A stretch of DNA of 64,000 nt from a virus. The position numbers and the translations under genes are program-made. The DNA lies in the IMG/VR virus record IMGVR_UViG_3300045391_005035; one strand, 5' to 3'. This document shows, piece after piece, positions 1,113 to 33,301 of the stretch (position 1 is the stretch's first letter; every line of letters begins with the position of its first letter). The notes under the pieces are model-generated. The model ran no database searches. It was not told where the DNA came from and worked only from the letters and a program-made list of their open reading frames with translations.

Positions 1113-1141
1113 ACAGTATGTTGCATAAACCATGGCGTCAA
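1113..1141 (-). promoter_or_regulatory. Sigma70-type promoter TTGACG-N17-TACTGT with GCAACA half-site, leaderless
   Basis: Read directly on the minus strand; -10 lies 6 nt upstream of GTG 1106. Confidence 0.65.
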
Positions 1142-1162
1142 GCTGTGGTACGCTATTTTCCT

Positions 1163-2152
1163 ATGCCGACTCCCTCCTGCCGCGACCTTCTGAGCCGCGA
1201 GATCTACGACCCCGTCTACGATCCGCTGACCGGGATCTGCTACCGGAACCCATGCGCCGCAGAGGAGGCGGGGATCGTCGACTGGATGCCCGGCTGCGGC
1301 GCCACCATCCCGAGTTACGCGATCGACACGGGTCCCACGTGGGTGGAAGAGGCGTGGTGGAACGACGGCGGCGGGCGTGGTCGTCGCCGTCGTCGGCGCT
1401 CAGGACATCCGCTCTCGCCTCCCGGAGGCGGCCGCTTCGGTCCTACCCTCGGGCCGCCCATGCTCCGTCCTGGCGGGGGCATGAAGTCGTCGGGCGGTGG
1501 AGGAGATCTGCTCCCGCCGATGCACTCTGGTCCGACGATGTTCGGCCAGGCGTCCGACCCGGCGAATCGTCGCATGGGCGGCGCAGGCCCGGTAGGCCCA
1601 GGGCTCGACGTCGATCGACCGACGTACTCGCCGCACTACGGCGGCCAGGTCATGGCGCCATACGCGCCGTCCTCGGTACAGCTGCGCACGCAGCCGACGA
1701 GCTACGTGGGCACGTACCGTCCGGCAGCGAGCAGCTACCAGGCGAGGCCGTACGCAGCCACCATGGCTCCGATGCGAGCGGCGTCGATGCAGATGCGCCC
1801 TCAGGCCGTCTCGGCGTCGAAGGGGATGCGTGGGCTCGGGCAGACGCCTCCGACGGTGCCCGGCGTGTCCGCGCCGTGCGACACGCTCATGTGCCGCATC
1901 AACACGTCGCCGTTCAATCCGATCCGCGCCGTTCGCGGCGTCTGGTTCCCCGAACCAAGTGGCAATCGCTTCGCTGGCATCGGCATCGCGCTGTACCGAG
2001 GCATCGCCGTCGCAGGGGCACTCGGGGCGTCGTACGCGACCTCGCGTCGAACGCGCTCCGCAGCAAAGATCGTGGCCGCTGGCGTCGCCGGCCTTGTGTT
2101 CGCCCCGATGGGCCTCGACGCAGCCGTCAACGCATTCCGGAGCCGCGCGTGA
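1163..2152 (+). CDS. Putative virion membrane protein (MRGLGQ motif, C-terminal hydrophobic helices)
   Basis: KGMRGLGQT motif; C-terminal GASYATSRRTRS hairpin resembles that of 32024-32341. Confidence 0.65.
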   Translation: MPTPSCRDLLSREIYDPVYDPLTGICYRNPCAAEEAGIVDWMPGCGATIPSYAIDTGPTWVEEAWWNDGGGRGRRRRRRSGHPLSPPGGGRFGPTLGPPMLRPGGGMKSSGGGGDLLPPMHSGPTMFGQASDPANRRMGGAGPVGPGLDVDRPTYSPHYGGQVMAPYAPSSVQLRTQPTSYVGTYRPAASSYQARPYAATMAPMRAASMQMRPQAVSASKGMRGLGQTPPTVPGVSAPCDTLMCRINTSPFNPIRAVRGVWFPEPSGNRFAGIGIALYRGIAVAGALGASYATSRRTRSAAKIVAAGVAGLVFAPMGLDAAVNAFRSRA

Positions 2153-9798: not shown

Positions 9799-10107
9799 TC
9801 AGATCACGACGAGCGTGGAGCCGAGCCCGGCCGCCGGCACGAGTCGCCCTCGAAGCATCATGCGCCGATCGGCGCGCACGGCGAGGCCTGCGCCAGGGTT
9901 CACGAACCCGCCGAGTCCGTCGTCCGGGCAGCCGAGCGGAAAGGGGAGCGGTGCGTAGTTGCCGATCGCGCGACCGCCTCGCGCGTTGTACGCGACCGTC
10001 TCGTTCGGAATGATGGTCCTGAGCTGACGCGCCCAGACGCTGTGCGCATTCGCGAAGCGACGCATCGGCTGCGTGCCGGGGAGGACCTTGGCGACGTGGT
10101 AGCTCAT
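9799..10107 (-). CDS. Small putative virion protein (MSY start, GLG motifs)
   Basis: MSYH...IIPN...DGLGG...AGLGS. Confidence 0.6.
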   Translation of the reverse strand: MSYHVAKVLPGTQPMRRFANAHSVWARQLRTIIPNETVAYNARGGRAIGNYAPLPFPLGCPDDGLGGFVNPGAGLAVRADRRMMLRGRLVPAAGLGSTLVVI

Positions 10108-14627: not shown

Positions 14628-14635
14628 GGCCTACC

Positions 14636-15574: not shown

Positions 15575-15674
15575 CGTGACCTTCCTCTGCCCGTTGTTCG
15601 GGCGTTGGCTTGGTGTTTCGGCTGTTGGTCGCCGTCTCCGAAATCGAGCTGGTGTTCGATCTCAGAGACCGCGA

Positions 15675-15696
15675 GGCGGCCCCGCGAAGGGCCGCC
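15675..15696 (-). terminator. GC hairpin after the putative MCP gene (stabiliser or attenuator)
   Basis: GGCGGCCC/GGGCCGCC stem; no U-tract. Confidence 0.4.
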
Positions 15697-15711
15697 CAGC
15701 GATCGCGTCGC

Positions 15712-16479
15712 TCAGAGAACGTCGCGCGAGTGGATGCCGTCGATCAGGTACTTGATGTCCTTCTCGATGTCGTCCGTGCCGGCGACCGACACGTCGCCGG
15801 TCGAGAGGGCCGTCTGACCCGTGGTGATCGCCGCGAGCGGACCGACGCTGCCGTCGATCAGGCCCAGGAGCTGCTCCTGGATGCTCGCGCCCGGCGCCTG
15901 GCCCATCTGGGCGAGCGTCGCGATGCACTGGAAGCCCTGACGGGGCGGGATGAGGATCGGACGCGCCAGGCGCATCAGCGCCGACGACGTCGGCACGCCG
16001 TTGTTCGCGCGCGGGAGGCGCGAGTCGGCGAAGAAGCCGTCGAGGCCGCCGGCGAACGGCGTGTACGCCGTGAACGTCGTCAGCTGCGGCTTGTCGCCGG
16101 CCTGGAACTGCCAGAACAGCTGGTTCTGGCTCTGGTGGTAGAGCTTGTGGACGCGCATCGTGCGGTCCGGGAACACGCCCGGAACCGAGCCGACGGACTG
16201 CGTCGCGCCGGCGACGGTGTAGGTGGCCTCCGGGTTGAACCGGAAGTAGCACCAGACGCGCACGGCGAGCGTGATGAACGTCTGATCCGACGGGAAGGTG
16301 CCACCCGTCGTGAGGTTGCTGACCGCCAGCTCCGCGCCCGAGCGCAGGAAGAGCTGCACGCGGCTGGAGAGCTGGTTCGCGCCCGGGTTCGCGCGGAGGT
16401 CGACGTGACCGTCCGTGCGGATGAGGCTGTCGTAGAAGGGCTGGTGGACGCGCTCGCGCGTTCCGACGATCTTCGGCAT
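15712..16479 (-). CDS. Putative major capsid protein, single jelly-roll type
   Basis: 255 aa, beta-rich; QPFYD...LF...SNL..GG.FP....F....VRV...RPILIPPRQGFQC...YLIDG; strongly C/G-ending codons; flanked by structured UTRs. Confidence 0.6.
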   Translation of the reverse strand: MPKIVGTRERVHQPFYDSLIRTDGHVDLRANPGANQLSSRVQLFLRSGAELAVSNLTTGGTFPSDQTFITLAVRVWCYFRFNPEATYTVAGATQSVGSVPGVFPDRTMRVHKLYHQSQNQLFWQFQAGDKPQLTTFTAYTPFAGGLDGFFADSRLPRANNGVPTSSALMRLARPILIPPRQGFQCIATLAQMGQAPGASIQEQLLGLIDGSVGPLAAITTGQTALSTGDVSVAGTDDIEKDIKYLIDGIHSRDVL

Positions 16480-17435: not shown

Positions 17436-19742
17436 TCAGGTCAGCGAGCCGCCGAAGATCGAGCGGGCGAAGATGCCGCCCTCGCCGGTGCGACCCTCGG
17501 ACGTCACCATGGACGTCTTGATGGGCAGCGTGCGGTGCATGACGCTGGTGACCTCGCGCGCCATGTCGATCGGCTGCTCGATCGACACGAACGGCGGCTG
17601 CTGGAGGCCGCCGGGGCCGACCGGCGGCGTGAGCGTCGGGACCGCGATCGGCGAACCGACCACGCCCGGCGTCCCCGCGTCACCCATGCCGGCCGCCGCG
17701 TACATCGTGCCCATGCCGGCCGCCGCCTCGTAGGCGCCGACGCCCGCGGCCGCTTCCATGGTGTCCATCAGGCCGTCGACCGACGCCTGATCGCCCATGC
17801 CGGCCGCCGCGTACATCGTCGGCGATCCGAGGCCGCCGAGCGGCTGGTCGACGTACTCGCCCATCGGCTGATCGACGTACTCGCCCATCGAGGGGTCCTG
17901 CACGTACGCGCCGAGCGGCTGATCGACGTACTCGCCGAAGCCCGCGCCCCAGCGACCGAGGTACGGCGCCGCCTGCGTGCCACGCAGGAGCCGCACGGCG
18001 ACCGCGCAGCCCATGCCCGCGACGATCGGCGTGAGGTTCTGGCGGAGCATCGCCGGCAGCTTGCCGCCGAACGCGATCGCGAGACCCGCGACGCCAGCGC
18101 CGACGAGCGACTTCGTGACGATCGGGTCCGCGCGACCCGCGTCGAGCATGTTCGTGATCGCCGGGACGCCAGCGGCGAGGTTCGCCGCTGCGTTCGCGGC
18201 CATCAGGCCGCCCACGGCGTACGCACCCGGGATCGCGACCTGGTTGATCGGATCGACGCCGAAGATCGTCATGTTGCGCATCAGCACGTAGCGGTTCCGC
18301 TTCATGCCCTTCGAGTGACGACGACGACGGCCGTTGCGGCTGACGTGCTTCTTGCTGTGGCGCTTCCGACTGTTCCGACGCATCGAGGACCTCCCGTTCG
18401 CGCTCACGCGCTTCTTGCTGTACCGCTTCTTGCTGTACCCGGACCGCATCGCGCGGGCGTGGGCATCCGACGCCGCTCCACCGAAGTGGAACTTGCGCAC
18501 GTAGGCGCGCTCGCTCACGTGCCCCGGCACGTAGACGGCGTAGCCCTTGCGCTTGCTGCGCGGGCCGAACTCGACGAGCTGCACGCGCTGCCCGGTCGGG
18601 AGCCCACGACGCTGGCTGACGCGGCCGAGCATGTTCGCCGCCATGCGGATGCCCGCCGCCCGACGCTTCGGGTGCTTGCTCGTGATGTGGATGTACGGCG
18701 GGTTGAAGAGCCGACCGGTGCGGAACGGCGACGCCGCGAAGCCCTTGACGCGCTTGTAGCCGCCACGTGCCTTCGACGTCAGGTGGAAGCGTCCGTGCTT
18801 GCGGCTGAGACGACCACGCTGCTGCGCCTTGCGGCTCGCCCTCGCAGCGACCGCCGCAGCGGACTCGGCAGCCTTCGCGGCGCGACGCGCCTTCGCGGCG
18901 GCCTTGTTCGCCGCCTTCTTGGACGACTTCTTCGCCTTCTTCGCCTTGCTCGTGGCCTTCGAGGCGGCCTTCTTCGCCTTGCTCGCATGCTTGCGTGCGC
19001 TCGCGGCGGCCTTGCTCGCGACCTTCTTCGACGTCGCCTTCTTCGCCTTCGACGCGGCCTTCTTCGCAGCGCTCGCCTGCTTGCTCGCGCTCTTCGCAGC
19101 CTTCGACGCGGCCTTCGCCGTCACGCGGCCGCCGGTCACGGTCGCCGCCGACTTGCTCTTCTTGTGCGACCGCTTCGAGGCCGACGCGAGAGCGCTCGAC
19201 ACGCGCTTGCGCTGCGCGCTCGTCATCGACGCGAACGCTGCCTGCGGACCCGTCGCCTTGCGTCCGCCCTTCGAGCGCCGCCGACCGCTTCCGACGTCGA
19301 TGCCGCGAGCCGCGGCCTTCACGGCCTCGCGATCTGCGGTCGACATGTTGCGACGCATCGCACGCTTGAGCGCCTTGAGGTTGTACGCCATCGAGCTTCT
19401 CCCTGTGTTCCGAAGGACCTGCTTGCGGCTCATGGGACGAGCCATGACCGTTCCCCACTCGTCGACCGCGACGAGGCGAGCACCGTTCGAGTCCGCGTGC
19501 TTCTCGGCCCAGCCGCGGGCACCGCGCACCGTTCGATACGCAGGACTGAGACGCTGATTGCGACCACGCGTCGCGCCGCGGATCCACTGAAATGGATTGC
19601 GCACAGGCGGGCGACCAGGGTTGATCACCGTCATGTGCGTAACGCCGCCCACGTTCGGCTCCATGCCGGGGCTGCGCTCGTACTTCCGAGCGACGGACTT
19701 CGTGCTCTTGCGGTAGACCAAGGCCATCTGGACGCAACTCAC
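17436..19742 (-). CDS. Large core/membrane protein: H1-like and protamine-like DNA-binding regions, 3 TM, GEYVDQP and AAAGMG repeats
   Basis: AKKAASKAKK tract; RHSK tracts; three hydrophobic helices; C-terminal repeats. Start may be ATG 19727. Confidence 0.75.
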   Translation of the reverse strand: MSCVQMALVYRKSTKSVARKYERSPGMEPNVGGVTHMTVINPGRPPVRNPFQWIRGATRGRNQRLSPAYRTVRGARGWAEKHADSNGARLVAVDEWGTVMARPMSRKQVLRNTGRSSMAYNLKALKRAMRRNMSTADREAVKAAARGIDVGSGRRRSKGGRKATGPQAAFASMTSAQRKRVSSALASASKRSHKKSKSAATVTGGRVTAKAASKAAKSASKQASAAKKAASKAKKATSKKVASKAAASARKHASKAKKAASKATSKAKKAKKSSKKAANKAAAKARRAAKAAESAAAVAARASRKAQQRGRLSRKHGRFHLTSKARGGYKRVKGFAASPFRTGRLFNPPYIHITSKHPKRRAAGIRMAANMLGRVSQRRGLPTGQRVQLVEFGPRSKRKGYAVYVPGHVSERAYVRKFHFGGAASDAHARAMRSGYSKKRYSKKRVSANGRSSMRRNSRKRHSKKHVSRNGRRRRHSKGMKRNRYVLMRNMTIFGVDPINQVAIPGAYAVGGLMAANAAANLAAGVPAITNMLDAGRADPIVTKSLVGAGVAGLAIAFGGKLPAMLRQNLTPIVAGMGCAVAVRLLRGTQAAPYLGRWGAGFGEYVDQPLGAYVQDPSMGEYVDQPMGEYVDQPLGGLGSPTMYAAAGMGDQASVDGLMDTMEAAAGVGAYEAAAGMGTMYAAAGMGDAGTPGVVGSPIAVPTLTPPVGPGGLQQPPFVSIEQPIDMAREVTSVMHRTLPIKTSMVTSEGRTGEGGIFARSIFGGSLT

Positions 19743-20414: not shown

Positions 20415-21083
20415 TCAGCCGTCGATACCTTCCTTGAGCACTCGCAACTTCCCCCCCTTGAGAATACAGAGGAATCCTGCGTCTCCGTTCGGCTGCGGCT
20501 TCGGAGAGAACACTGCGAGCGTGTGTCCATCCGGAGCCGCGAGCAGCCACGTGTTACGTGGGTTCACCTCGTGAATCTGACCGTCGTCGTCACGACGGAC
20601 GAACAACCCGAGGCAGTAGCCAAGGCGCGCCCATGCCGACGACGGCGGCAGCGACACCCTCTCGACGCCCGCGTTGCGCTTCAGCTGCGCCTCCGCGAAC
20701 TTGGCGTTTTCGTAGAGCCGGACGCCCTTGCCTTCGCGGTATTCGCGACCTTCGTAGGGCTCGTGCCGGTGCTTGTAGTCGGTGTCGACTTCCTCTTCGC
20801 CGTCCTTCGTCCACTTGCTCGACCGGTACATCACCGAGAGCGCGTCGCCGACTGGGACGATCTGCGTGGGCGGGTTGTACGGCACGCGAACCACCATGCG
20901 CGGTGCCTTCTGCTGAAAGATCTCGTACCGATCCATCGCTCGGTCGAGCGCGGTGCCAGCGGCGCCGTGGATCTTGTCAGGATCGATCTCCGTTCCGAAT
21001 GTCCGCGCTTCGACGGTGCGATTCGGCTTGAGCTGACGACTCGCTCGACGACCTCGGCTCGACCTCTTGCTCGTGCGCTTCAT
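20415..21083 (-). CDS. Basic-leader globular virion protein
   Basis: MKRTSKRSS...LKPN; YRSSKW...YKHRHE; C-terminus GGKLRVLKEGIDG. Confidence 0.7.
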   Translation of the reverse strand: MKRTSKRSSRGRRASRQLKPNRTVEARTFGTEIDPDKIHGAAGTALDRAMDRYEIFQQKAPRMVVRVPYNPPTQIVPVGDALSVMYRSSKWTKDGEEEVDTDYKHRHEPYEGREYREGKGVRLYENAKFAEAQLKRNAGVERVSLPPSSAWARLGYCLGLFVRRDDDGQIHEVNPRNTWLLAAPDGHTLAVFSPKPQPNGDAGFLCILKGGKLRVLKEGIDG

Positions 21084-21409
21084 CGACGCCTCCACCACCA
21101 TGCGGCCGCCGCCCCGACGAGACCGCCGATCGCGTACTTCTTGAGGTCGTCGTTGCTCGGCATGTCGAGACCGAGTCCCGCGAGCGGACCGGTGCCTCGC
21201 ACGCGAACCTCTCCGCGGCACATGTGGTCGTAGCCGACGAACTGTGCGTCGGACGGCAGCGGATTCATCTGCGTGTCGGGGTCCGCGCCGAGACGGCCGA
21301 CGTTCCGCGGTCGCGGTGGCTTCGGATCGTCACCCACGGAGGCGGGACGGGCGTCGCGATAGATCGCCCACGAGTTGCGGTCCCAGTCCCAAACGGAGTA
21401 CAGCGCCAT
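21080..21409 (-). CDS. Small virion membrane protein
   Basis: LAGLG motif, then C-terminal TM and WWWRRR. Confidence 0.65.
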   Translation of the reverse strand: MALYSVWDWDRNSWAIYRDARPASVGDDPKPPRPRNVGRLGADPDTQMNPLPSDAQFVGYDHMCRGEVRVRGTGPLAGLGLDMPSNDDLKKYAIGGLVGAAAAWWWRRR

Positions 21410-23748: not shown

Positions 23749-24225
23749 TCACGCAGCCGAGCGGTAACGCGACTTGCGCGAACGCTTGTTGCGGCGGACG
23801 TGGCGACGATTCGCCTTCACCGGACCCTTCACGTTCCAGCTCATGTAGGCGATGCCGCCGAGCACCGCGACGCCCACGCCGATCATCACCGGCCAGTACC
23901 AGTCCGGACTCGCGGAGACCGGCGGTGCGGTGGCGGTAGCCGGATCGATGGCCGGAGTCGTCGTGGCCGGAGTCGTCGTGGTCTGCTGACCCGTCGCTGC
24001 GCCGACGATGCTGCTGATGAGCGAGCCACCTGTCGTGAGCGCTGTCGACCAATCGGACGCGGTGTGATCCGCCGTCGTCGTCGTTGTCTTGGTCTGCCCG
24101 AGCCCGAAGAGCCCGTTCGCTCGGTACGGACCCTTGCCCCATCCGAAGAGGCCATGCGCCTCGTAGGGGTTGCCGAGTCCAGCTGCCGCGAAGATTCCGC
24201 GGTTGACGCGATTCGTGTAGCTCAT
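23749..24225 (-). CDS. Virion membrane protein (MSY leader, GLG, Thr-rich stalk, TM, basic tail)
   Basis: MSYT..GIFAAAGLG..LFGLGQ..TM..VKANRRHVRRN. Confidence 0.7.
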   Translation of the reverse strand: MSYTNRVNRGIFAAAGLGNPYEAHGLFGWGKGPYRANGLFGLGQTKTTTTTADHTASDWSTALTTGGSLISSIVGAATGQQTTTTPATTTPAIDPATATAPPVSASPDWYWPVMIGVGVAVLGGIAYMSWNVKGPVKANRRHVRRNKRSRKSRYRSAA

Positions 24226-24551
24226 CACTTCCTCTTCTTTCGGCTCTTCAGCCACCACATGACACCGGCTCCGACGAGCCCCACGCCGACCACGCCCGCG
24301 ACCCCGACACCGACCACCGCGGTCTCCGTCTGCCCGAGGCCGTAAGGTGCAACGCACCCGCGGTACCGCAAACAGGGGAGCACGAGCGACGGCGGCTGGC
24401 TCCAGCACTCGGAGCACGGGCTGTAGGCGACGTAGTCGATGAAGCCGGGGCCATACCATCCGCCACGCCAGCCACGACGCACCCAGCCGTGGCCGCCGCG
24501 ACGAAAGCCGCCGCGGTGGCCCGCGCCATGATGACCCCCGCCGCCACTCAC
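24225..24551 (-). CDS. Small Gly/Arg-rich virion membrane protein
   Basis: RGGW tract, PYGLGQ, TM, KSRKKRK. Confidence 0.65.
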   Translation of the reverse strand: MSGGGGHHGAGHRGGFRRGGHGWVRRGWRGGWYGPGFIDYVAYSPCSECWSQPPSLVLPCLRYRGCVAPYGLGQTETAVVGVGVAGVVGVGLVGAGVMWWLKSRKKRK

Positions 24552-25132
24552 CTGCGCCTCCGCCTGCGCCGACCGTTGTTGTTCAAGATCTTGCTGACCG
24601 TGCGGATCTTCGCCCACTGCGCGAGCACGTATCCCGTGACGCCGAGGCCGAGAATGCCGACGCCGGCCCACATGAGGCCGCGATCGCCCATGCGAGAAAA
24701 CCAATCCCCCCACGACACGTACGAGTGCGTCGAAAGGGTTGGCGCCCCGATGAGAGAACGGTATCGGACCTCGAATCCGTTGTACTCGTTCGCGAAGTTG
24801 TGCAGCGACGATGCCAGACTTCCGCTCGCATACTGACCATCCGCACGGACAGTCGACGACAGCCATTCGCGAAGTCCGGAGGCCGATGCGTCTCCGCTCG
24901 CGACCTGAAGCTGTCGGAAGAACGGCTGCCAGCGCTGCGTGTACCAGACGAGCCACTCGTTGTAGAGGCGTGCCTTGTCGGGGCCGCCACCGAGCAGCGC
25001 GCCCGCATGGGACGTGATGTCGGTGTTCAGCGCCTGCGCCGCGGTATTGATCTGCTGCCCCGCCCCGGTCATGTCACCCGGCGTGTACAGAGACTCCGCG
25101 ACCGTCACCTCTCCGAGGGCTCGGTAGCTCAT
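24548..25132 (-). CDS. Virion membrane protein
   Basis: MSYRALGE...helical body...TM...ILNNNGRRRRRRR. Confidence 0.7.
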   Translation of the reverse strand: MSYRALGEVTVAESLYTPGDMTGAGQQINTAAQALNTDITSHAGALLGGGPDKARLYNEWLVWYTQRWQPFFRQLQVASGDASASGLREWLSSTVRADGQYASGSLASSLHNFANEYNGFEVRYRSLIGAPTLSTHSYVSWGDWFSRMGDRGLMWAGVGILGLGVTGYVLAQWAKIRTVSKILNNNGRRRRRRR

Positions 25133-25707
25133 CGCGCTCCCCGACGGCGACGGTTCCGAAGAAGCCGACGCCGATTCGACGCCATCTTCTTGCGGCGCAT
25201 CATCACGACGCCCGCCACGACGACGACCGAGCTGACGACAGCGACCGGCACGAGCCACGCGCTCGGGCTGCTGTCGGCTGGCGCGAGGGTCGGATCGAGC
25301 GCAGGCGGGACCGGCGTCGAGACGTACGACGTGCCGCTTGTGATCGCGGACGGAGATGGCGGCAACGGCAGGTTCGTCCGGCCGGTCACCGTCGCGAGCG
25401 CCGACCGCGTGTTCGTGCCGTAGATCCCGTCCACCGCCAGGCCGTGGCCGTAGGCGAGCTGGAACGTGCGCACCGCGGGGATCGGCAGGCGGTTCTGTAC
25501 CGCCGTCGGGTTCGCGATCACGGCGGAGATGGCCGCGTTCGCGGTCACCGTCGGATCGGTCTCCGCCAGCGTGAACGTCATGTCCGGCGCCGTCGGCGCC
25601 GCGGCGCCAAGCCCGAGCAGGCCGAACAGACCCGTCGTGCGGCGACGCTTGCCGCCGAAGCTCGCGCCTCGGTAGAACGGAGTCGATCCCAATCCTGCGT
25701 AGCTCAT
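25129..25707 (-). CDS. Membrane-anchored peptidoglycan-binding-domain protein
   Basis: AVRTFQLAYGHGLAVDGIYGTNTRSAL is the PG_binding_1 signature; MSYAGLG leader; TM; MASN/LLRN tail. Confidence 0.8.
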   Translation of the reverse strand: MSYAGLGSTPFYRGASFGGKRRRTTGLFGLLGLGAAAPTAPDMTFTLAETDPTVTANAAISAVIANPTAVQNRLPIPAVRTFQLAYGHGLAVDGIYGTNTRSALATVTGRTNLPLPPSPSAITSGTSYVSTPVPPALDPTLAPADSSPSAWLVPVAVVSSVVVVAGVVMMRRKKMASNRRRLLRNRRRRGAR

Positions 25708-25743
25708 GTTCTTCCTCAACCCTCGCGGCTCATGCCGCTGTGA

Positions 25744-26385
25744 TCAGACCTTCTGTCCCTCGTCGCGCAAGGCGTCGATGTAGTCCTCCCACGCCTTGCC
25801 CTTCTTGCCGCCGCCCGGATAGAAGCCGACGACGCCGCCCTCGTGCTCGACAGCAGAGAGACCCTCGCGCTTCGCGAGCTTGTCCAGCTCCTTGATCGGA
25901 GGCTTCACGCCCTTGCAGTGGATCGTGACGAGCGGCGAAACCTGCTTGAGCTTCTTCGCTGCGTCGTCGGCGTCCGTATAGATCGTCGTCTTGTCCCCGA
26001 CGCCGTTCTTCTGAAGGCTCACTCGAAGCCGATCGCCGAACGCCGACCGACTCGGTGACCACCCGGCAGGCAGCGCCGGCAGCGAGGAGCCGCCCTCGGA
26101 GTCGCCTGGATTCTTCGCGACGGCGTCCTTGTTCTTCGTGAAGAAGTAGTAGGCGAGGCCGGCGCCGACGGCACCCAGGCCCCATCCCCAGACCGGAACG
26201 CCGGCCAGACGGCGCTGAAGCAGCGACTCCGGCGCCGTCTGCGTCGGAATCTGCGCGAGCGAATGCGCCTGCTGCTGCGCGATCGACAGCGGAAAGAGCT
26301 GCATCTGCATCGACGGCGGCGCGTGTCCCGGATGCTGCTCCATGTACTCGGCCTCGATCTGGTCGTACTCGTCCATGTGCCCCAC
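25744..26385 (-). CDS. Virion membrane protein with C-terminal globular domain
   Basis: GVPVWGWGLGAVGAGLAYYFF TM followed by VAKN. Confidence 0.65.
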   Translation of the reverse strand: MGHMDEYDQIEAEYMEQHPGHAPPSMQMQLFPLSIAQQQAHSLAQIPTQTAPESLLQRRLAGVPVWGWGLGAVGAGLAYYFFTKNKDAVAKNPGDSEGGSSLPALPAGWSPSRSAFGDRLRVSLQKNGVGDKTTIYTDADDAAKKLKQVSPLVTIHCKGVKPPIKELDKLAKREGLSAVEHEGGVVGFYPGGGKKGKAWEDYIDALRDEGQKV

Positions 26386-26396
26386 GTTCCTTCTCT

Positions 26397-26777
26397 TCAG
26401 CGACTGTGCCGGCGCGAGCGACGCCGACGCTTGCCACCACGGTTGGCCGTCACGGTACCACTACGACGACCGCCTCTCATCATGAGAACGGCGACCAGGC
26501 CGACGACGGCGACGCCGCCGACGACGTAGAGCACCGTGTTGTTGTTCGACGCGGGGGCCGTGTACGCGCTGGGCGGCGGCATGTACGCCGCGCCACCGCT
26601 CTTGTCCGGCGCTGGCGGCATGTACGCCGCGCCACCGCTCTTCGCTCCCGTGGTGGCGCCGCCGGTCGTGGCGAGCGTCGAGATCAGCTCGTCGGACGCC
26701 GCGTCCGGAAGCGGAGCTGTCGCCGTCGTCGTCTGGCCGAGGCCGTCGAAGAGGTTGCCACCGAAGATCCCAGCCAT
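26397..26777 (-). CDS. Small virion membrane protein
   Basis: MAGIFGGNLFDGLGQ; 2x KSGGAAYMPP; TM; VTAN-RGGKRRRR. Confidence 0.7.
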   Translation of the reverse strand: MAGIFGGNLFDGLGQTTTATAPLPDAASDELISTLATTGGATTGAKSGGAAYMPPAPDKSGGAAYMPPPSAYTAPASNNNTVLYVVGGVAVVGLVAVLMMRGGRRSGTVTANRGGKRRRRSRRHSR

Positions 26778-26779
26778 GA

Positions 26780-27757
26780 TCACGCCTTCTTCCTGCGCCG
26801 CTTGTTCGCGGTCACCTTGTGCGACGAACGAAATGCGATCGCGGCGATTCCCACGCCGGCCGCACCGACCACCCACCACTTCAGATCCACACCCATCGGC
26901 CTGATGGCCCAGCGCGATGGCGACGACGACGGTCCCGTCGTCAGCACCGGCGCGATCGTCACCGGACCGACTGGCGTAAAGTCCGGCGCCGTGGAGTCGC
27001 TCGGCGGCGCCGCGTTCGGCACACAGAGTCCGCTCGCATCACGGAAGTACCCGTCCGTGCACTGGACCTGTGCATCCGGCTGCGTCGACAGGGACTCCGC
27101 CGCCTGAGCCGCCGCCTGAGCCGCCGCCGCCTCGCTCGCCGCTTGATTCGCGACTGCCTGAGCCTGCTGCGCCGAAGCGACCTGCACGGGCGTCTGAGCC
27201 TGCTGCGCTTGCGCTGTCGCCGTCGTCTGCGCGGCGTTCGCGACAGCCACCTTCTGCGCCGCGAACGTTCGTGCAGCGAGCAGTCCGCCCGGACGCAGCG
27301 GAGACGTCGCGAGCGTTGGCGTTGGCGCGTGTCCGGCGTACTTGCCGGCGGCGATGTCAGCGAGCAGCTTCTCGATGCTCACACCGACGAGGACTGGCGG
27401 CGTGGGGTTCACCGCGTTCCTGTAGCCACCGACGACGATGCTCTGCGTCACGAACTGCTTGAGGTTCGGAGACAGCGTGTTCAGCGCGGCGGCTACTGCC
27501 GCAGGATCGATCTTGCCGAACGCGTTGGGCTTCGCCCGCGACAGCAGGGCGCCGGCGAGGAAGAGCGGAGCCATCGAACGGTTGTTGTTGCTGGTCGCAT
27601 ACAGCTTCGACATCCAGCTGCCGAGCGCTGCGATCATCGCCGCGTTGACACCGACGTCGACCATCGGCGCCGTGGGCGCACGATTGACTGGACCCGGCGT
27701 CGCCGGCGCGAAGCCGGTCCGCAGCAAGGTCGCCTGACCCAGGCCTTCGTAGCTCAT
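26780..27757 (-). CDS. Virion membrane protein with Ala/Gln-rich stalk
   Basis: MSYEGLGQ; CTDGYFRDASGLC; TM; VTAN-KRRRKK. Confidence 0.7.
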   Translation of the reverse strand: MSYEGLGQATLLRTGFAPATPGPVNRAPTAPMVDVGVNAAMIAALGSWMSKLYATSNNNRSMAPLFLAGALLSRAKPNAFGKIDPAAVAAALNTLSPNLKQFVTQSIVVGGYRNAVNPTPPVLVGVSIEKLLADIAAGKYAGHAPTPTLATSPLRPGGLLAARTFAAQKVAVANAAQTTATAQAQQAQTPVQVASAQQAQAVANQAASEAAAAQAAAQAAESLSTQPDAQVQCTDGYFRDASGLCVPNAAPPSDSTAPDFTPVGPVTIAPVLTTGPSSSPSRWAIRPMGVDLKWWVVGAAGVGIAAIAFRSSHKVTANKRRRKKA

Positions 27758-28122
27758 CGACGACTCCGCCTGTGACGACGACGACCGTTCGGCGTGACCG
27801 AGCTGCGGCCGCGGAAGTAGTAGTAACCGCCGGCGATCGCCGCGAGCGCCCACCAGCGCAGCGCGATACCGAACGGCGCCGCCGGCAGCGAGAACGACAT
27901 CGGCGTCTTGCTCTTGTCATCCGTGTTCATCGGCGCGAGCGGAACGAGCGGCGTCGGCTCCGGTGCCGGCATGAACGGCGGCGGCGACGGCGGCGGAGCT
28001 GGCATCGGGATCAGGTCCGACGGCCCAGGCTCCGTGGTGAACACGGCTGGATCCGTCGTCATGGGCGTCGCGGGAGCGATGTCGGTCCCGAGACCCGTGA
28101 GCGAATAGTGTCTGTAGGCCAT
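27754..28122 (-). CDS. Small Pro-rich virion membrane protein
   Basis: MAYRHYSLTGLG; TM; VTPN-GRRRHRR. Confidence 0.7.
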   Translation of the reverse strand: MAYRHYSLTGLGTDIAPATPMTTDPAVFTTEPGPSDLIPMPAPPPSPPPFMPAPEPTPLVPLAPMNTDDKSKTPMSFSLPAAPFGIALRWWALAAIAGGYYYFRGRSSVTPNGRRRHRRSRR

Positions 28123-28133
28123 GGCCGTTCCTC

Positions 28134-28433
28134 TCAGCGCTTGCGCTTCTTCCGACCGTTGCGAGTCATCGCGCGCGACCGCATCACGAACCACGCCGTG
28201 AGCCCGAGCCCGACGAGCGAGTACAGCTCCATCCGGAGTGGCCGAGCGTCCGCCGAGGTCAGATCGGAAACGATCTGTCCGAGCGGATGCATGCCCTCAC
28301 GTGGCGGATGCGTCTGCCACACGTACTTGCTCGGCACGCGACGTCGCTGCGGCTGCGACAGGTCCGCGTAGACCCATGGGTTCGTGACAGCCCACGGCGC
28401 GTAGCCGAGGTGTCGCTTGACGGCGTACGTCAT
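28134..28433 (-). CDS. Small virion membrane protein
   Basis: MTY..HLG..PLGQ; TM; MTRN-GRKKRKR. Confidence 0.7.
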   Translation of the reverse strand: MTYAVKRHLGYAPWAVTNPWVYADLSQPQRRRVPSKYVWQTHPPREGMHPLGQIVSDLTSADARPLRMELYSLVGLGLTAWFVMRSRAMTRNGRKKRKR

Positions 28434-28437
28434 CGAG

Positions 28438-28695
28438 TCACTCCTCGTTCTTCTTCAGCTTCGCCTGCATCGGACGCCACCAGGCGAAGTAGGCCCACGC
28501 GGCTCCGACGACCGCCGCGCCAGCCCCGAAGCAGACGAGCGGTCGTCGGTAGAACGGCACGGCCTCCACCTGGCCGAGAGGCGGGAGCCCATAGAGCGGA
28601 TACGCTGGCATGCCCTCGGTGGGCACCGCACCTCCGCTCATCTCGGACGCCTGCTGCTCGTACTGCTGCGGCTGGACGTACTGATCGAAACGCAT
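28438..28695 (-). CDS. Small virion membrane protein
   Basis: PPLGQ; TM; LKKN. Confidence 0.65.
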   Translation of the reverse strand: MRFDQYVQPQQYEQQASEMSGGAVPTEGMPAYPLYGLPPLGQVEAVPFYRRPLVCFGAGAAVVGAAWAYFAWWRPMQAKLKKNEE

Positions 28696-28722
28696 GGGCT
28701 CCTCCTCCGTCAGCGAGAAGGA

Positions 28723-29130
28723 TCAGCGGCTGTGGCGCCGACGCGAGTGGCGGCGGTTCTTGCTCACGCGACGACGGCTGCGACGACGACCGTTCTTGCT
28801 CACGCGACGACGGCTGCGACGACGACCGTTCTTGCTCACGCGCTTCTTCGAGTGGCGCTTGCCCTTCGACGTGCGCTTCTTCGAGTGGCGCTTGCGCGAC
28901 GTGCGCTTCTTCGACACGCGACCCACCGAGAACATCTTGCTGCCACGCTTGATGCTCACGTGCTTGCTGCCGCGCTTGATGAGACCACGCGCCTTGCGAC
29001 GCGCTGCACCGAGCTTCGACGAGCGCGCGACCACGCGGTGCGTCTTGCCGCTCAGGATCGCGAACAGCTTGCTGTCGAGCTTGCTGCGCGAGTGCTTCTT
29101 CCGGCTCTTCCGCTTCGTTCCCATGATCAC
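28723..29130 (-). CDS. Protamine-like DNA-condensing protein
   Basis: Extremely R/K/S-rich; 3x RVSKN. Confidence 0.75.
   Translation of the reverse strand: MIMGTKRKSRKKHSRSKLDSKLFAILSGKTHRVVARSSKLGAARRKARGLIKRGSKHVSIKRGSKMFSVGRVSKKRTSRKRHSKKRTSKGKRHSKKRVSKNGRRRSRRRVSKNGRRRSRRRVSKNRRHSRRRHSR
28756..28842. repeat. Coding 36-bp tandem repeat (about 2.4 copies) encoding RVSKNGRRRSRR
   Basis: GTTCTTGCTCACGCG recurs at 28756, 28792 and 28828. Confidence 0.85.
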
Positions 29131-30536
29131 TTCACTCCCATGTTGCGCGCGAACTTTCGCGCGTGCCTCTTCACGTTTCGCTGCACCGATCTGCCCTGCT
29201 TAGTCTGCGTGAGGAAGTAGTACCCCACACCTACGGCCGCAGCGCCGAGTAGAAGATTCCGACCCATGCTGGCCGTCGGCGCCGCTTCTGGCGTCGCGAC
29301 CTGTCCCATGCCCAGCGCCGCCGGGCTACTGACGAGCGCCGCGACGTCGGCCTGCGCCGCGTTCTTGTTGCCGGCGATCGGCGCAACATGTGCGACGACT
29401 GCCTGCTGAAGCACGCCAGAGTTCGCGCGCAGCTTCTCGCCCATCTTGTCGATGCGCGGCAGACCCGAGCGGCCCTTCGCGCGATCGGCCATGTCCTTCA
29501 TGGTCGCGTGCATCACGCAGTGTGCGAGCGTGTCTTCGAGCGCAGTGTCTGGACGATAGCCCATCGCGACGAGGCGCTCGGATACCTGGCGGCACTTCGC
29601 CGCCTGTCCCGCGCCGAGCGCTTCTGTCGCCTGCGTGAGGAACGACGAGCGTACCGTCGGGTTCGAGATCATGCGGGCCTCGTCGACGACGGCCTTGGCC
29701 GCCGCACGTCCGAACGCCTCGATGTGCGAACGCGGCCCGGTTCTCTCTGGGCGCATGCTCGGCATCTGCTGATCGACGAATGGAGACGACGTCGGCTTGA
29801 GGTCTCGCACGTTGCGCGCGAACGTGACGCCGCCGCCGGATGGCTGCACGACACGCCAGTTGTTCGCGACCGAGTCCCACATCTGCGACTGCTGCACGTC
29901 CAGCTCGCCCTCCTGGGCGATGTACGCGGGCAGCGCGTAGTCGTTGGCGAAGGATCCGTCGCGCGGATTCCACACGACGCCCTCTTCCATGTCGAAGATG
30001 CCGGTGCCGATCACGTTCTGCGGATCATCGTCGTACTCGAACGAGCCGCGGTCGTAGATCGTCGCCGGATCGACGCCAGCGTTCGACGGCATGCGGTTCC
30101 GCTGCGGATGACGCGACGCCGGACGCACCGGCTGCGGCGAGCCGCTGACTCGGATGGCGATCTCCTGCGCTGGCGACGCGCCCGATGCGGGGTCGTCTCC
30201 AGAGAGATCCGTGCGCATCGAGGCGGGGCGGTAGCCGCCGCCTCCTCCGACCTTCCACGGATACGAGCCGTACTCCGTCTCGGACATCCCAGGATCGTCC
30301 TCGGTCGAGTCCGTCAGGTCGAACTCCGACATGCCGTCCACGTCCGATGCCGGGCCCGCGCCAGATCCCGGCGTCGACGGCGTGTCCTCCTGAAGCTCGT
30401 CGTCGAGGAACGACGAGTCGGGATCGCCGGGCAGACGCTGGTAGTCCTGCACGTCGAGATTCGCGTTTCCACGCATCGTCGGCATGTCCAGATCGCCTGC
30501 ACCGTCATCGAGATCGAAGTCGAAATCGCTCATCAC
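29127..30536 (-). CDS. Virion membrane protein with acidic disordered N-terminus
   Basis: Asp-rich N-terminus; helical domain related to the next two genes; ALGMGQ; TM; VQRN...FARN. Confidence 0.7.
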   Translation of the reverse strand: MMSDFDFDLDDGAGDLDMPTMRGNANLDVQDYQRLPGDPDSSFLDDELQEDTPSTPGSGAGPASDVDGMSEFDLTDSTEDDPGMSETEYGSYPWKVGGGGGYRPASMRTDLSGDDPASGASPAQEIAIRVSGSPQPVRPASRHPQRNRMPSNAGVDPATIYDRGSFEYDDDPQNVIGTGIFDMEEGVVWNPRDGSFANDYALPAYIAQEGELDVQQSQMWDSVANNWRVVQPSGGGVTFARNVRDLKPTSSPFVDQQMPSMRPERTGPRSHIEAFGRAAAKAVVDEARMISNPTVRSSFLTQATEALGAGQAAKCRQVSERLVAMGYRPDTALEDTLAHCVMHATMKDMADRAKGRSGLPRIDKMGEKLRANSGVLQQAVVAHVAPIAGNKNAAQADVAALVSSPAALGMGQVATPEAAPTASMGRNLLLGAAAVGVGYYFLTQTKQGRSVQRNVKRHARKFARNMGVK

Positions 30537-30561
30537 GTTCTCCGTCCGCGCCCCACGCGCG

Positions 30562-31278
30562 TCAGTCGAGTACCATCCACGCAGCGCCGAGCACCGTCAG
30601 CAGGATAGCGCCGCCGACAGCCACCGTCTGAAACCGATGCTTCCGCGATGCCGCCTCGGCGGCCGCCTGCTGACTCGCGGCCACTTGCTGTGCCGCGGCG
30701 AGCTGCGCCTGTGCTCGCGCCGCCGCCGTCGCAGCATCGCGCGCTTCCTTACCACAGTCGAGCACCTGACCGGCAACGGTGCTGCCGATGCTCGTGACGA
30801 GGCCGACGATCTGCCCGTACACCGGAACGACCTGCGCCACGCCGCCGACCATGTTGGCTCCGGATGCGATCATGCATCCAGTCGCGCGATCGTCCGCGCC
30901 GCTACCGAGACCCACGTCGACCAACGAATCCCACCCGCTGCGCGTCGCAATGTTGTGCCTGATGTTTTCGAGGCTTCGATCGAGGCGCGTGTTCGCAATC
31001 GCAAGGCGCAGAGCATCGAACGCAACCTGATCGGGATTCGCGCCGGACACCAGGCCCTTCTTCATCTCCATGAGCACAGGCGCCGATGGCACTTCCAGCT
31101 CATCGAGCGACGATTCCATCACCTGTAGCCGACGCTCGCTAGGCACCTTCGCCATCGCGAGCATGATCGACGACGCATCCAACGACGCCTTGGCCAGCAC
31201 CGGATCGCTGAACGCGCGCTTCCCCACGCCAACGGGCGTGACGTCGCCGAGCGCTCGCGATGCCGACGCGTAGCTCAT
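30562..31278 (-). CDS. Virion membrane protein, paralogue of 31275-32027
   Basis: MSYASASRALG; ASSIMLAMAKVP..DQVAFDALRLAIA; VGLGS; C-terminal TM. Confidence 0.7.
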   Translation of the reverse strand: MSYASASRALGDVTPVGVGKRAFSDPVLAKASLDASSIMLAMAKVPSERRLQVMESSLDELEVPSAPVLMEMKKGLVSGANPDQVAFDALRLAIANTRLDRSLENIRHNIATRSGWDSLVDVGLGSGADDRATGCMIASGANMVGGVAQVVPVYGQIVGLVTSIGSTVAGQVLDCGKEARDAATAAARAQAQLAAAQQVAASQQAAAEAASRKHRFQTVAVGGAILLTVLGAAWMVLD

Positions 31279-32027
31279 GCCGCCTTCTTCAACATGGCGT
31301 AACCGATGCCGAGGGCGGCGATCGCGCCTCCGCCGACCAGCACGTAGCGCATGAACCGTGCGTCCGCGGCCTGCTGCATCGCGAGCGCCTGAACGGTGCC
31401 CTGCTGTGCCAGGCGCGCCTGATCGAGCGCCTGCTGTCCGCGGATCACGAGCTGCCCAGCGCCGCAGCCAGCGATCTGGCCAGCCGTCTGGGTACTCGAC
31501 GTGAGCGCTCCGGTGCCAGATCCGGTACCGGTCTGATCGAGCACGCCGCCGATCATGCCGACGGTACCCGCGACGTACGAGCAGAAGATCGCGTTCGCGT
31601 CGTTGATGTTCTGACTGGTGCGGCCCTGAGCCTCGGCGATTGTCTGCCCCAGCCCGGAACCGGCCGGTCGCTGCGCCAACGTCTGCTGCACGAAGTGGTC
31701 GGCGATCGCGGCGCGGATTGCGTCGAACATCGCCTGGTCCACCTTGTTCGCCGGCGCAGTCGCCACCCGTCGAGCGAAGTCGGCGCGGGCAGAATCTCCG
31801 AGTCCACGCTGCACCGCATTGAGGGTGCGCACCATCTCGGCGAGGCGCTGACTGCGCGGCACCGACGCCATCTTCAACATGACGTTGGACGCGAGTAGCG
31901 ATGCGGTCGACAGAATGGGGCTCGACTGAGCCATGGTGCCCAGCTCGATCGGAGCCTGATCCGGCACGACGGACGCACCGAGTCCCATGAGCCCACGTGC
32001 AGCACGGCTGCGCCCTGCGTACGTCAT
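31275..32027 (-). CDS. Virion membrane protein, paralogue of 30562-31278
   Basis: MTY..LMGLG; ASNVMLKMASVP..DQAMFDAIRAAIA; SGLGQ; C-terminal TM. Confidence 0.7.
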   Translation of the reverse strand: MTYAGRSRAARGLMGLGASVVPDQAPIELGTMAQSSPILSTASLLASNVMLKMASVPRSQRLAEMVRTLNAVQRGLGDSARADFARRVATAPANKVDQAMFDAIRAAIADHFVQQTLAQRPAGSGLGQTIAEAQGRTSQNINDANAIFCSYVAGTVGMIGGVLDQTGTGSGTGALTSSTQTAGQIAGCGAGQLVIRGQQALDQARLAQQGTVQALAMQQAADARFMRYVLVGGGAIAALGIGYAMLKKAA

Positions 32028-32341
32028 CGACGGCTCCTCTTCCGGTTCCGACGCATCGCGGCCGGCTTGCCGAAGCCCTGGGCAACGGCAACCGCCAGCG
32101 CGATCGGCCACACGATGCCGCCGCCGATACCCCACGCGAGCGCCCAGCCCCACGAGTTGCTGCGACGGTAGCCGTGGTACGCGAGCGCGCCCATGGCTGC
32201 AACGCTGGCGACGCGCAGCGCCATCATCGACGGCGACGCGAGCTGGATCGCGGTCGATGGTGTGGTCGGCGGCGTGACCGGAGCGGCCGTCTGCCCGAGG
32301 GGAGCACGAGCGTAGTAGGGAGCCTGTGCGTAGTTGCTCAT
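32024..32341 (-). CDS. Small virion membrane protein
   Basis: APLGQ; AYHGYRRSNSWGWALAW hairpin; MRRN-RKRSRR. Confidence 0.7.
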   Translation of the reverse strand: MSNYAQAPYYARAPLGQTAAPVTPPTTPSTAIQLASPSMMALRVASVAAMGALAYHGYRRSNSWGWALAWGIGGGIVWPIALAVAVAQGFGKPAAMRRNRKRSRR

Positions 32342-32349
32342 GCCTGTTC

Positions 32350-32907
32350 CTACACGGGGAAAAAGGTGTACTGCTGGACGCGAGAGAGCATGTTTGCGGT
32401 CTTGCGGCCCGCGACCGGGTCGAGTGCCCACCACAGGCCGGTGCTCGGGTCCTGCGCCTCGACGAACACATGCGTGTGGATCTTCGGCTCGCCGAACCGG
32501 CGCGGCTTGAAACCGACCGTCACGAACCGGATGGGAGCGCCGATCACGAGGCAGCAGGTGCCGATCCCGAGCGCGAACTCGTCGCAGTCGCAGACGAGCC
32601 GACCCTGCGTCGCGTCCTGGACCATGCGCTCCGGGTCCTTGATCAGCTCCACATGCACCGGGTCGCGCGTGTACCGCCCGTTGTTCCCCCACCACTTCGA
32701 GATGGCGACGCACTCCGACAGGTACGCCTTGGGCCGGATGTTCGCGATGATCTGCTCGGTGTGCCGCCGGACGAAGATCGACCGCTCGCCTCGCTCGCCG
32801 CGAGCCAGCTCGATCATTTTACGGACGGTGTGATCCGTTCCCCGGTACGGCTCCACAGAGCCGATCGCGTTGTTGTACGCGGGGGAGTATGCAGACGCTC
32901 GAAGCAT
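32350..32907 (-). CDS. Transglutaminase-like (papain-fold) Cys-His-Asp enzyme, candidate maturation protease
   Basis: YTRDP...CDCDE...HTHVF...WWALDP. Confidence 0.8.
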   Translation of the reverse strand: MLRASAYSPAYNNAIGSVEPYRGTDHTVRKMIELARGERGERSIFVRRHTEQIIANIRPKAYLSECVAISKWWGNNGRYTRDPVHVELIKDPERMVQDATQGRLVCDCDEFALGIGTCCLVIGAPIRFVTVGFKPRRFGEPKIHTHVFVEAQDPSTGLWWALDPVAGRKTANMLSRVQQYTFFPV

Positions 32908-32977: not shown

Positions 32978-33301
32978 CTACCGACGCGTCGTCAGCTTCA
33001 GGCCGTCGCGGACCATGACCTTGGGCTGCATGCGCGCCGGCGCCGATCCGCGCGCCTCGCCTTGCAGCTCCACGCGAACCGACACGATGTCGCGACCACG
33101 GTACTCGGTCACGAGGATGAACATGCCTCCGGGCGCGATACCCAGCTTGCGCAACGGCTCCGATGGCATCGAGTAGGTGGACCCGTCGACGAAGCGAACT
33201 GCCGCCCGCGGTCCCTGCATTACGGCCAGCTGCGCGAGACGACGCTCGGTGCTTGTTGACGGCTGCTGTTGGAGCTGCCGGTAGTTGCCGAGCGCCTTCA
33301 T
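32978..33301 (-). CDS. Hypothetical protein
   Basis: In-operon ORF. Confidence 0.55.
   Translation of the reverse strand: MKALGNYRQLQQQPSTSTERRLAQLAVMQGPRAAVRFVDGSTYSMPSEPLRKLGIAPGGMFILVTEYRGRDIVSVRVELQGEARGSAPARMQPKVMVRDGLKLTTRR

What the first reader, a model, noticed from the sequence alone, without database searches (positions are those of the whole stretch)
23749..32341. Conserved M-[STA]-Y...(G)LG leader matching the adenovirus-protease cleavage consensus
Seen: consecutive genes begin MSYT, MSYR, MSYA, MSYE, MAYR, MTYA, MSYA, MTYA, MSNY. Each is followed by LFGLG-Q, RALG-E, YAGLG-S, YEGLG-Q, LTGLG-T, LMGLG-A, PLG-Q or similar. FDGLG-Q, PYGLG-Q, LAGLG, MRGLG-Q and LGMG-Q occur in others. 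Established: adenain cleaves (M/L/I)xGx/G during maturation of precursor virion proteins, and MRGLG, LAGLG, LMGLG, LTGLG and LFGLG fit that consensus exactly. Inference: a shared removable propeptide or assembly signal, i.e. adenovirus-like maturation in a bacterial virus.
Basis: partly seen in the sequence, partly recalled or inferred. Interest (0 to 1): 0.82.

Follow-up and report, generated by a model that had tools for sequence, protein, structure and literature searches.

The report
Glycine cut-sites in tailless-phage membrane proteins
A large, undescribed tailless soil phage marks most of its membrane-anchored particle proteins with a short small-Leu-Gly tag that probably tells its own cysteine protease (a transglutaminase-like enzyme, not the adenovirus one) where to cut during particle maturation; no cutting has been shown, but the cultured phage SSIP-1 has the same parts and allows a direct test.

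Summary
The motif is real: 13 of 15 genes at 23749-32341 carry x-[LM]-G, usually just after a Tyr/Phe. It is enriched far beyond shuffles and conserved in relatives whose capsid proteins are only 32-38% identical. It is not the adenain consensus: only 4 of 18 sites here and 22% in relatives fit. It also occurs inside proteins and in tandem arrays, so 'leader' is a special case. Gene 32350-32907 is a transglutaminase-fold Cys-His-Asp enzyme; no adenain or Ulp1-type gene was found in complete relatives. Indirect support for cutting: enzyme and motif occur together in 10/10 genomes; inteins sit at the catalytic Cys; in other viruses the enzyme is fused through xLG linkers to a protein encoded separately here; orthologues swap M|SY for GLG|[NS]Y. 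Cultured phage SSIP-1 has a virion-located homologue (gp34) and five G[LM]G sites. Best reading (0.62): maturation cleavage after the last Gly, analogous to but not homologous with adenain/poxvirus I7. The Tyr segment may first tether membrane to capsid, as vaccinia A17 does (untested). The scan noted similar systems on other genomes. No cleavage shown.

The parts
32350..32907 (-). Transglutaminase-fold cysteine enzyme, candidate maturation protease; triad C108 (32584-32586), H146 (32470-32472), D163 (32419-32421)
   Evidence: Pfam PF01841 E 6e-4, below cut-off; triad invariant in 64 homologues; model pLDDT 91 matches transglutaminase-like folds
32978..33301 (-). Small soluble protein with ALG|NY at 33287-33295; orthologues have either PhiG|[NSG]Y or M|[ST]Y
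32024..32341 (-). Two-TM protein, MSNY start, PLG|Q at 32294-32302
31275..32027 (-). Anchored protein, MTYA start; GLG sites at 31977-31985, 31797-31805 and 31647-31655 (last one a conserved internal junction)
30562..31278 (-). Paralogue of the previous gene, MSYA start; ALG|D at 31246-31254 and internal GLG|S at 30904-30912
29127..30533 (-). 468-aa protein with GMG|Q at residue 408 (29304-29312), about 20 residues before the C-terminal anchor; a site is present in this region in 32 of 33 orthologues
28438..28695 (-). Anchored protein, PLG|Q at 28573-28581 (site in 29 of 30 orthologues)
28134..28433 (-). Anchored protein, MTYA start, PLG|Q at 28278-28286
27754..28122 (-). Anchored protein, MAYR start, GLG|T at 28087-28095
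26780..27757 (-). Anchored protein, MSYE start, GLG|Q at 27737-27745
26397..26777 (-). Anchored protein, GLG|Q at 26736-26744
25129..25707 (-). Anchored protein with weak PG-binding-domain match, MSYA start; GLG sites at 25687-25695 and 25606-25614
24548..25132 (-). Anchored protein, MSYR start, ALG|E at 25112-25120
24225..24551 (-). Anchored protein with Gly/His/Arg-rich N-region, GLG|Q at 24333-24341 just before the TM helix
23749..24225 (-). Anchored protein, MSYT start; GLG sites at 24172-24180 and 24097-24105
21080..21409 (-). Anchored protein (GLG near 21170-21178) whose family is fused behind the protease domain, mostly through xLG-type linkers, in other viruses
17682..17942 (-). Tandem array of about ten x-Tyr...[GPS]-Phi-Gly units in the C-terminal part of gene 17436-19727
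15712..16479 (-). Putative major capsid protein, single beta-sandwich (jelly-roll-like) model; followed by two further beta-rich capsid-like genes 14636-15574 and 13941-14627
   Evidence: weak structural matches, Z up to about 7; identity as MCP is inferred
1118..2152 (+). Isolated plus-strand gene with MRGLG|Q at 1832-1840 followed by a hydrophobic C-terminus

Best explanation
The window is part of a tailless, probably membrane-containing bacterial virus of about 176 kb with single-jelly-roll-type capsid proteins. Its C-terminally anchored particle proteins are made as precursors. A short site, (Tyr/Phe)-x(0-5)-[G/A/P/S]-[L/M/I/F/V]-Gly, is recognised by the virus's own transglutaminase-fold Cys-His-Asp enzyme (32350-32907). 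The enzyme most likely cuts after the last Gly (hydrophobic P2, Gly P1, a papain-type preference). This removes leaders of 7 to about 60 residues, or frees whole soluble domains from their membrane anchors, during or after assembly. Shown: the motif, its conservation, its one-sided position relative to the anchor, and the enzyme's fold and intact triad. Inferred: that the enzyme is a protease, that it cuts this motif, the bond that is cut, and the timing.
For: (1) Enzyme and motif occur together in all 10 genomes checked, in two clades; the second motif (Phi-x-x-N) is largely limited to one clade (enzyme found in 5/5 distant genomes). (2) In longer homologues the catalytic domain is the N-terminal part of a longer, often C-terminally anchored, protein; 17 of 30 have an xPhiG site within 70 residues after it, against 7.6 expected (max 14 in 1000 shuffles). 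In 11 clusters the fused partner is the family of window gene 21080-21409, a separate gene here. This is a polyprotein pattern, and it puts the enzyme on the motif side of the membrane. (3) In the family of 32978-33301, 33 orthologues have PhiG|[NSG]Y and 7 instead start M|[ST]Y without the motif; both give the same N-terminus if Met is removed and the cut follows Gly. (4) Sites mark composition and domain boundaries: Tyr 11% before against 2% after. Internal sites are conserved at junctions. (5) In 212 single-TM proteins, 201 sites lie on the N-side and 3 on the C-side (0.66 vs 0.08 per 100 residues). (6) Intein-like inserts lie immediately before the catalytic Cys in at least 11 homologue clusters (weak Hint matches), as expected for a needed active site. 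(7) SSIP-1 gp34, annotated as a virion structural protein, is a homologue (HHalign 97%, E 7e-11). It has GMG between its domain and anchor, and gp36, gp37, gp52 and gp53 carry G[LM]G near their N-termini.
Against: No cleavage has been observed anywhere, and the SSIP-1 paper with its virion protein data could not be read. About ten tandem copies in 17436-19727, and leaders as short as seven residues, fit a multivalent binding motif equally well. Fusion linkers are Gly-rich in general, and 13 of 30 extended homologues lack a strict site. Some orthologues lack the N-terminal site altogether. A second conserved motif (Phi-x-x-N) could be the enzyme's target in this clade. Orthologues are not independent samples, so the shuffle statistics overstate significance.
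Confidence: 0.62

Rival explanations
1. The Tyr...xLG unit is a non-cleaved assembly motif. It docks into a pocket on the inner face of the capsomers or on a scaffold and so recruits membrane proteins; the enzyme has another substrate.
For: Tandem arrays of about 10 units. Tyr/Phe within six residues upstream in 72% of first sites, against 32% expected. Vaccinia A17 binds D13 through N-terminal tyrosines (PMC13672803). All sites lie on one membrane face.
Against: It does not readily explain the motif at protease fusion junctions, the exchange of M|SY and GLG|[NS]Y, or the co-occurrence with the enzyme.
Confidence: 0.22
2. The enzyme is a true transglutaminase that cross-links the Gln after GLG to lysines of capsid or membrane proteins.
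For: Transglutaminase fold. Gln is the commonest residue after the motif (21%, 4.5-fold enriched).
Against: Orthologous sites exchange Gln for Asp, Glu, Ala, Ser or Thr. None of the five SSIP-1 sites has Gln.
Confidence: 0.06
3. The motif is cut or read by a host factor (a peptidase or membrane-insertion machinery). The viral enzyme acts on the Phi-x-x-N motif in basic tails and core proteins, or on the cell envelope.
For: Phi-x-x-N is strongly conserved on the basic side in this clade. Some transglutaminase-fold relatives are cell-wall isopeptidases (PeiW/PeiP hits).
Against: Phi-x-x-N is nearly absent (0-2 of 20-27 anchored proteins) in five genomes that keep both the enzyme and xLG. In fused forms the enzyme sits on the xLG side.
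Confidence: 0.08
4. Adenain-type system proper: an adenain (C5) homologue cuts (M/I/L)XGX|G.
For: Four of 18 window sites fit, and Leu at that P4 position is about twofold enriched.
Against: 78% of sites do not fit. No PF00770 match in 4 complete relatives and no PF02902 match in 5. The candidate enzyme has a different fold and catalytic order.
Confidence: 0.02

Closest known systems
[quoted passage not shown]
   Same: Cultured, membrane-containing tailless phage with two MCP types (PMC6356626). gp34 is a homologue of 32350-32907 with the triad intact. It follows a coiled-coil gene and precedes C-terminally anchored proteins bearing G[LM]G sites.
   Different: 44 kb against about 176 kb. gp34 has its own anchor. 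Five sites rather than about 30. MCP homology was not detectable by sequence. I found no report of gp34 as a protease or of processing (limited library; the original paper was not held).
Vaccinia A17 / D13 / I7
   Same: A membrane protein whose N-terminal tail starts MSYL, binds the jelly-roll scaffold through tyrosines, and is cut at AG|X by a viral cysteine protease (PMC13672803, PMC4213562).
   Different: One main membrane substrate rather than a dozen. I7 is an adenain/Ulp1-clan enzyme (own knowledge). D13 is a transient double jelly roll. No sequence homology was tested or is claimed, and the shared MSY start may be coincidence.
Adenovirus protease (adenain, MEROPS C5)
   Same: A virus-encoded cysteine protease that cuts many particle precursors at short Gly-containing sites (PMC4246237).
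   Different: Different fold and catalytic order (His54, Glu71, Cys122 against Cys108, His146, Asp163). It needs P2 Gly and mostly P4 M/I/L, which are not conserved here. Its substrates are DNA-binding core and cement proteins, not membrane proteins.
Bacterial transglutaminase-like cysteine proteases (LapG, TgpA, PeiW/PeiP, CPR-C4)
   Same: Best structural matches of the model. LapG releases a surface protein by one cut near its N-terminus (own knowledge).
   Different: Cellular or lysis roles, not particle maturation; only 10-19% identity.

Membership tests
Adenain (C5) maturation system | Protease of adenain fold with His-Glu-Cys order | tested here: not met
   Candidate is Cys108-His146-Asp163 with transglutaminase fold; PF00770 not found in 4 complete relatives. 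The window's own full genome was not held.
Adenain (C5) maturation system | Sites follow (M/I/L)XGX|G or (M/I/L)XGG|X | tested here: not met
   4 of 18 window sites and 51 of 230 sites in relatives fit XGX|G; orthologous sites replace the P2 Gly
Adenain (C5) maturation system | Activation by DNA and a cleaved peptide cofactor | not testable with these tools
   Needs biochemistry
Transglutaminase-like cysteine enzymes (PF01841) | Papain-like core with Cys-His-Asp triad | tested here: met
   Pfam E 6e-4, under cut-off for this protein and over cut-off for relative G004; top Foldseek hits are transglutaminase-like; triad invariant
Transglutaminase-like cysteine enzymes (PF01841) | Protease versus cross-linking activity | not testable with these tools
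   Sequence argues against an obligatory Gln donor; activity needs an assay
Poxvirus A17/I7-like tether-and-release | Tyr-bearing segment binds the capsid protein | tested here: inconclusive
   One co-folding job gave no answer (see Tried and rejected)
Poxvirus A17/I7-like tether-and-release | Cleavage after a small-Gly site by the viral protease | not testable with these tools
   Indirect support only
Halopanivirales / Singelaviria (single-jelly-roll viruses) | Vertical single-jelly-roll major capsid proteins | tested here: inconclusive
   Model is one beta-sandwich with weak matches to jelly rolls including SPV1 capsid protein (Z 6.6); no sequence match to SSIP-1 gp45/gp46
Halopanivirales / Singelaviria (single-jelly-roll viruses) | FtsK/HerA-type packaging ATPase | tested here: inconclusive
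   PF04665 not found in 5 relatives, but one profile cannot exclude a divergent ATPase
Tailed phages (Caudoviricetes) with prohead protease | Terminase, portal, HK97 capsid | tested here: inconclusive
   PF03237 not found in 5 relatives; none among the top 25 families shown in the Pfam and PHROG scans of G009, which list only the top 25

The most novel reading that the evidence does not exclude
A widespread lineage of prokaryotic single-jelly-roll viruses, from compact contigs to genomes of 125-300 kb and including SSIP-1, has evolved a tether-and-release maturation code independently of adenain/I7. Tyr-bearing peptides on a dozen membrane proteins dock the membrane to the capsid lattice, and a transglutaminase-fold protease then cuts each after x-Leu-Gly, sometimes first cutting itself out of a polyprotein. 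A second motif (Phi-x-x-N) marks the DNA-facing side in one clade.
Probability: 0.35. Interest if true: 0.88.

Novelty: new variant of a known kind. Interest (0 to 1): 0.72.

Why it matters
Proteolytic maturation in jelly-roll viruses is, to my knowledge, described only for eukaryotic members (adenain, I7 and relatives). My literature searches found no maturation protease in prokaryotic jelly-roll viruses (open-access library only). If confirmed, this would be such a system, built on a different protease fold, and so a case of convergence on Gly-site maturation. It would give a function to SSIP-1 gp34 and to part of a large uncharacterised family (2222 clusters at E up to 0.001, not all viral). 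It would also give a rule for spotting virion membrane proteins in these uncultured viruses. SSIP-1 makes it testable by one N-terminomics experiment.

Tried and rejected
Co-folding of three MCP copies with the tandem-motif region (residues 592-646 of 17436-19727) gave no answer: score 0.00, partner poorly folded. It is not used as evidence either way. No whole genome is held for the window, so gene-absence tests were run on relatives. Sequence comparison of the MCP profile with SSIP-1 gp45/gp46 was not significant. Foldseek of the MCP model against PDB and BFVD gave nothing at E up to 0.001. PDB sequence hits of the protease profile were designed SAKe propellers, judged spurious. The SSIP-1 paper (PMC3344969) is not held. 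No RNA holder was listed; DNA holders are soil metagenomes. Rejected: a DNA-level repeat (codons vary); the protease's own AIG|S at residues 14-17 as a site (Pro at P2 in 17 of 64 homologues); the adenain consensus as the conserved feature. Gene calls in relatives come from my own simple caller, which reproduced most hand-curated window genes but is incomplete for lower-GC genomes such as G007.
Full report
Setting. The interval is part of a tightly coupled minus-strand operon running from about 36800 to 9800. The window's capsid-like protein is also on record in a 176 kb contig. DNA holders are soil metagenomes. Relatives in IMG/VR are 112-298 kb, several with terminal repeats. Gene 15712-16479 folds as a single beta-sandwich with weak jelly-roll matches, among them the SPV1 capsid protein. 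Terminase and A32-type ATPase profiles found nothing in five relatives. I therefore read this as a large tailless, probably internal-membrane bacterial virus; that is inference, not a classification.

The observation. The quoted starts and motifs are all present. Eight of 15 genes start M-[STA]-Y and 13 carry x-[LM]-G outside membrane segments. Enrichment is clear: 11 of 15 genes have it within 60 residues against 1.5 in shuffles, the operon has 39 sites against 12.7, and non-operon genes are at chance. In dereplicated relatives, 57% of 283 anchored proteins have the motif in the first 60 residues and 47% start M-[STA]-Y. For 240 opposite-strand genes the figures are 6% and 2%. Orthologues are not independent, so these are descriptive numbers. 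The motif persists in genomes whose capsid protein is only 32-38% identical, where the MSY start is less frequent.

What the motif is. The conserved core is hydrophobic-Gly, usually preceded by G, A, P or S, followed by Q, A, D, E, S or T, with Tyr or Phe within six residues upstream in 72% of cases against 32% expected. Adenain cuts (M/I/L)XGG|X or (M/I/L)XGX|G (PMC4246237). Only 4 of 18 window sites and 51 of 230 sites in relatives fit, and orthologous sites replace the Gly that adenain needs at P2. The motif is not confined to N-termini. It is conserved mid-protein in the 31275/30562 family, at residue 408 of the 468-residue protein just before its anchor (32 of 33 orthologues), and as about ten tandem x-Tyr...Phi-Gly units in 17436-19727. 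It lies almost only on the N-terminal side of the single TM helix (201 against 3 sites). The basic C-terminal tails carry a different motif, Phi-x-x-Asn followed by Arg/Lys.

The enzyme. Gene 32350-32907 is transglutaminase-like by Pfam and by fold, with C108, H146 and D163 invariant in 64 homologues. Adenain has the order His54, Glu71, Cys122. PF00770 and PF02902 were not found in four and five relatives respectively. Intein-like inserts lie directly before the catalytic Cys in at least 11 homologue clusters; by established knowledge of inteins this suggests an active site that is needed.

Links between enzyme and motif. First, both are present in all ten genomes examined, whereas the Asn motif is nearly absent from the five distant ones. 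Second, many distant homologues have C-terminal extensions, often ending in an anchor, and 17 of 30 have an xPhiG site within 70 residues after the catalytic domain against 7.6 expected. In 11 clusters the extension is the family of window gene 21080-21409, encoded separately here, and most linkers hold the motif. One such fusion lies on a 10.7 kb contig with the same gene order and a recognisable capsid gene. Third, in the family of 32978-33301, 33 orthologues have PhiG|[NSG]Y and seven start M|[ST]Y instead. Since Met aminopeptidase removes Met before Ser or Thr (established), both give the same N-terminus if the cut follows the last Gly. This favours a hydrophobic P2 and Gly P1, a papain-type preference, over the adenain register, but does not prove it. 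Fourth, the only hit among cultured phages is SSIP-1 gp34 (HHalign 97%), annotated as a structural protein. It has GMG between domain and anchor, and four other SSIP-1 proteins have G[LM]G near their N-termini. The count is 4 against 1.0 expected in anchored proteins and 0 against 2.3 elsewhere (p about 0.02, class chosen after looking).

Mechanism. Most likely (0.62) the anchored proteins are precursors trimmed by this enzyme after x-Phi-Gly, removing short leaders or releasing soluble domains. The closest working analogy is vaccinia A17, whose MSYL N-terminus binds the D13 jelly-roll scaffold through tyrosines and is cut at AG|X by I7 (PMC13672803, PMC4213562). The upstream Tyr and the tandem arrays suggest a similar tether function before cutting, but this step is untested. 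A never-cleaved binding motif remains the main rival (0.22). Cross-linking through the following Gln is unlikely, because Gln is freely replaced and is absent from the SSIP-1 sites. One point is unexplained: the strongly basic 20-residue tails of this clade must end up on the face opposite the motif, presumably with the DNA, and how they cross or avoid the membrane is unclear.

Verdict. The adenain match is superficial, but the idea of protease maturation is partly supported, with a different enzyme. It works like adenain/I7 maturation and is not a member of that family. The scan noted similar motif-plus-enzyme systems in other genomes, and one such note named SSIP-1 gp34, which I checked here. 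Novelty: new variant of a known kind. Interest 0.72.

Noticed in passing
window basic tails and core proteins, e.g. 23210, 22928, 22020, 21021, 28756-28828, 18294-18396 (minus strand): Second motif [VMLI]-x-x-Asn followed by Arg/Lys/Gly/Pro, in basic C-terminal tails and after basic N-terminal segments: 28 sites in the operon against 5 in other genes. Largely confined to this clade. Could be a second processing or DNA-packaging signal.
   Followed up: partly
window 10979-12028 and 10104-10982 (minus): Paralogue pair: one has a basic leader ending ...HQN then PIPPPP, the other starts directly MIPPPP, as if the Asn motif marks a removable boundary.
   Followed up: no
proteins P0224, P0225, P0226, P0231, P0243, P0261, P0291 and others: Intein-like inserts, some with a weak LAGLIDADG match, immediately before the catalytic Cys of the transglutaminase-like enzyme.
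   Followed up: partly
window 13941-16479 (minus): Three tandem beta-rich capsid-like genes; the same trio appears in distant relatives and a similar trio in SSIP-1 (gp45-47). Relatives reach 125-300 kb, large for single-jelly-roll viruses, with no A32-type ATPase or terminase detected.
   Followed up: partly
window 28723-29124 and 17436-19727 (minus): Very basic protamine- or histone-H1-like Arg/Lys/Ser/Ala-rich proteins, probably DNA-condensing core components.
   Followed up: no
window 9799-10107 (minus): Small protein ending in GLG plus a five-residue hydrophobic tail; similar endings at the equivalent position in L106 and L108.
   Followed up: no
window 1118-2152 (plus): Motif-bearing membrane protein gene standing alone on the opposite strand, far from the operon.
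   Followed up: no
L161 (10.7 kb contig): Compact version of the same module: Zn-finger-like gene, acidic gene, coiled-coil gene, protease fused to the 21080 family, tandem-motif protein, then capsid genes.
   Followed up: partly
window 1-143 (minus), 9192-9788 (minus), 48250-51444 (plus): By eye: start of an RtcB-like RNA ligase, a J-domain protein (HPD motif), and a MoxR-like AAA ATPase with a neighbouring metallopeptidase/VWA-like gene. Not tested on the window.
   Followed up: no
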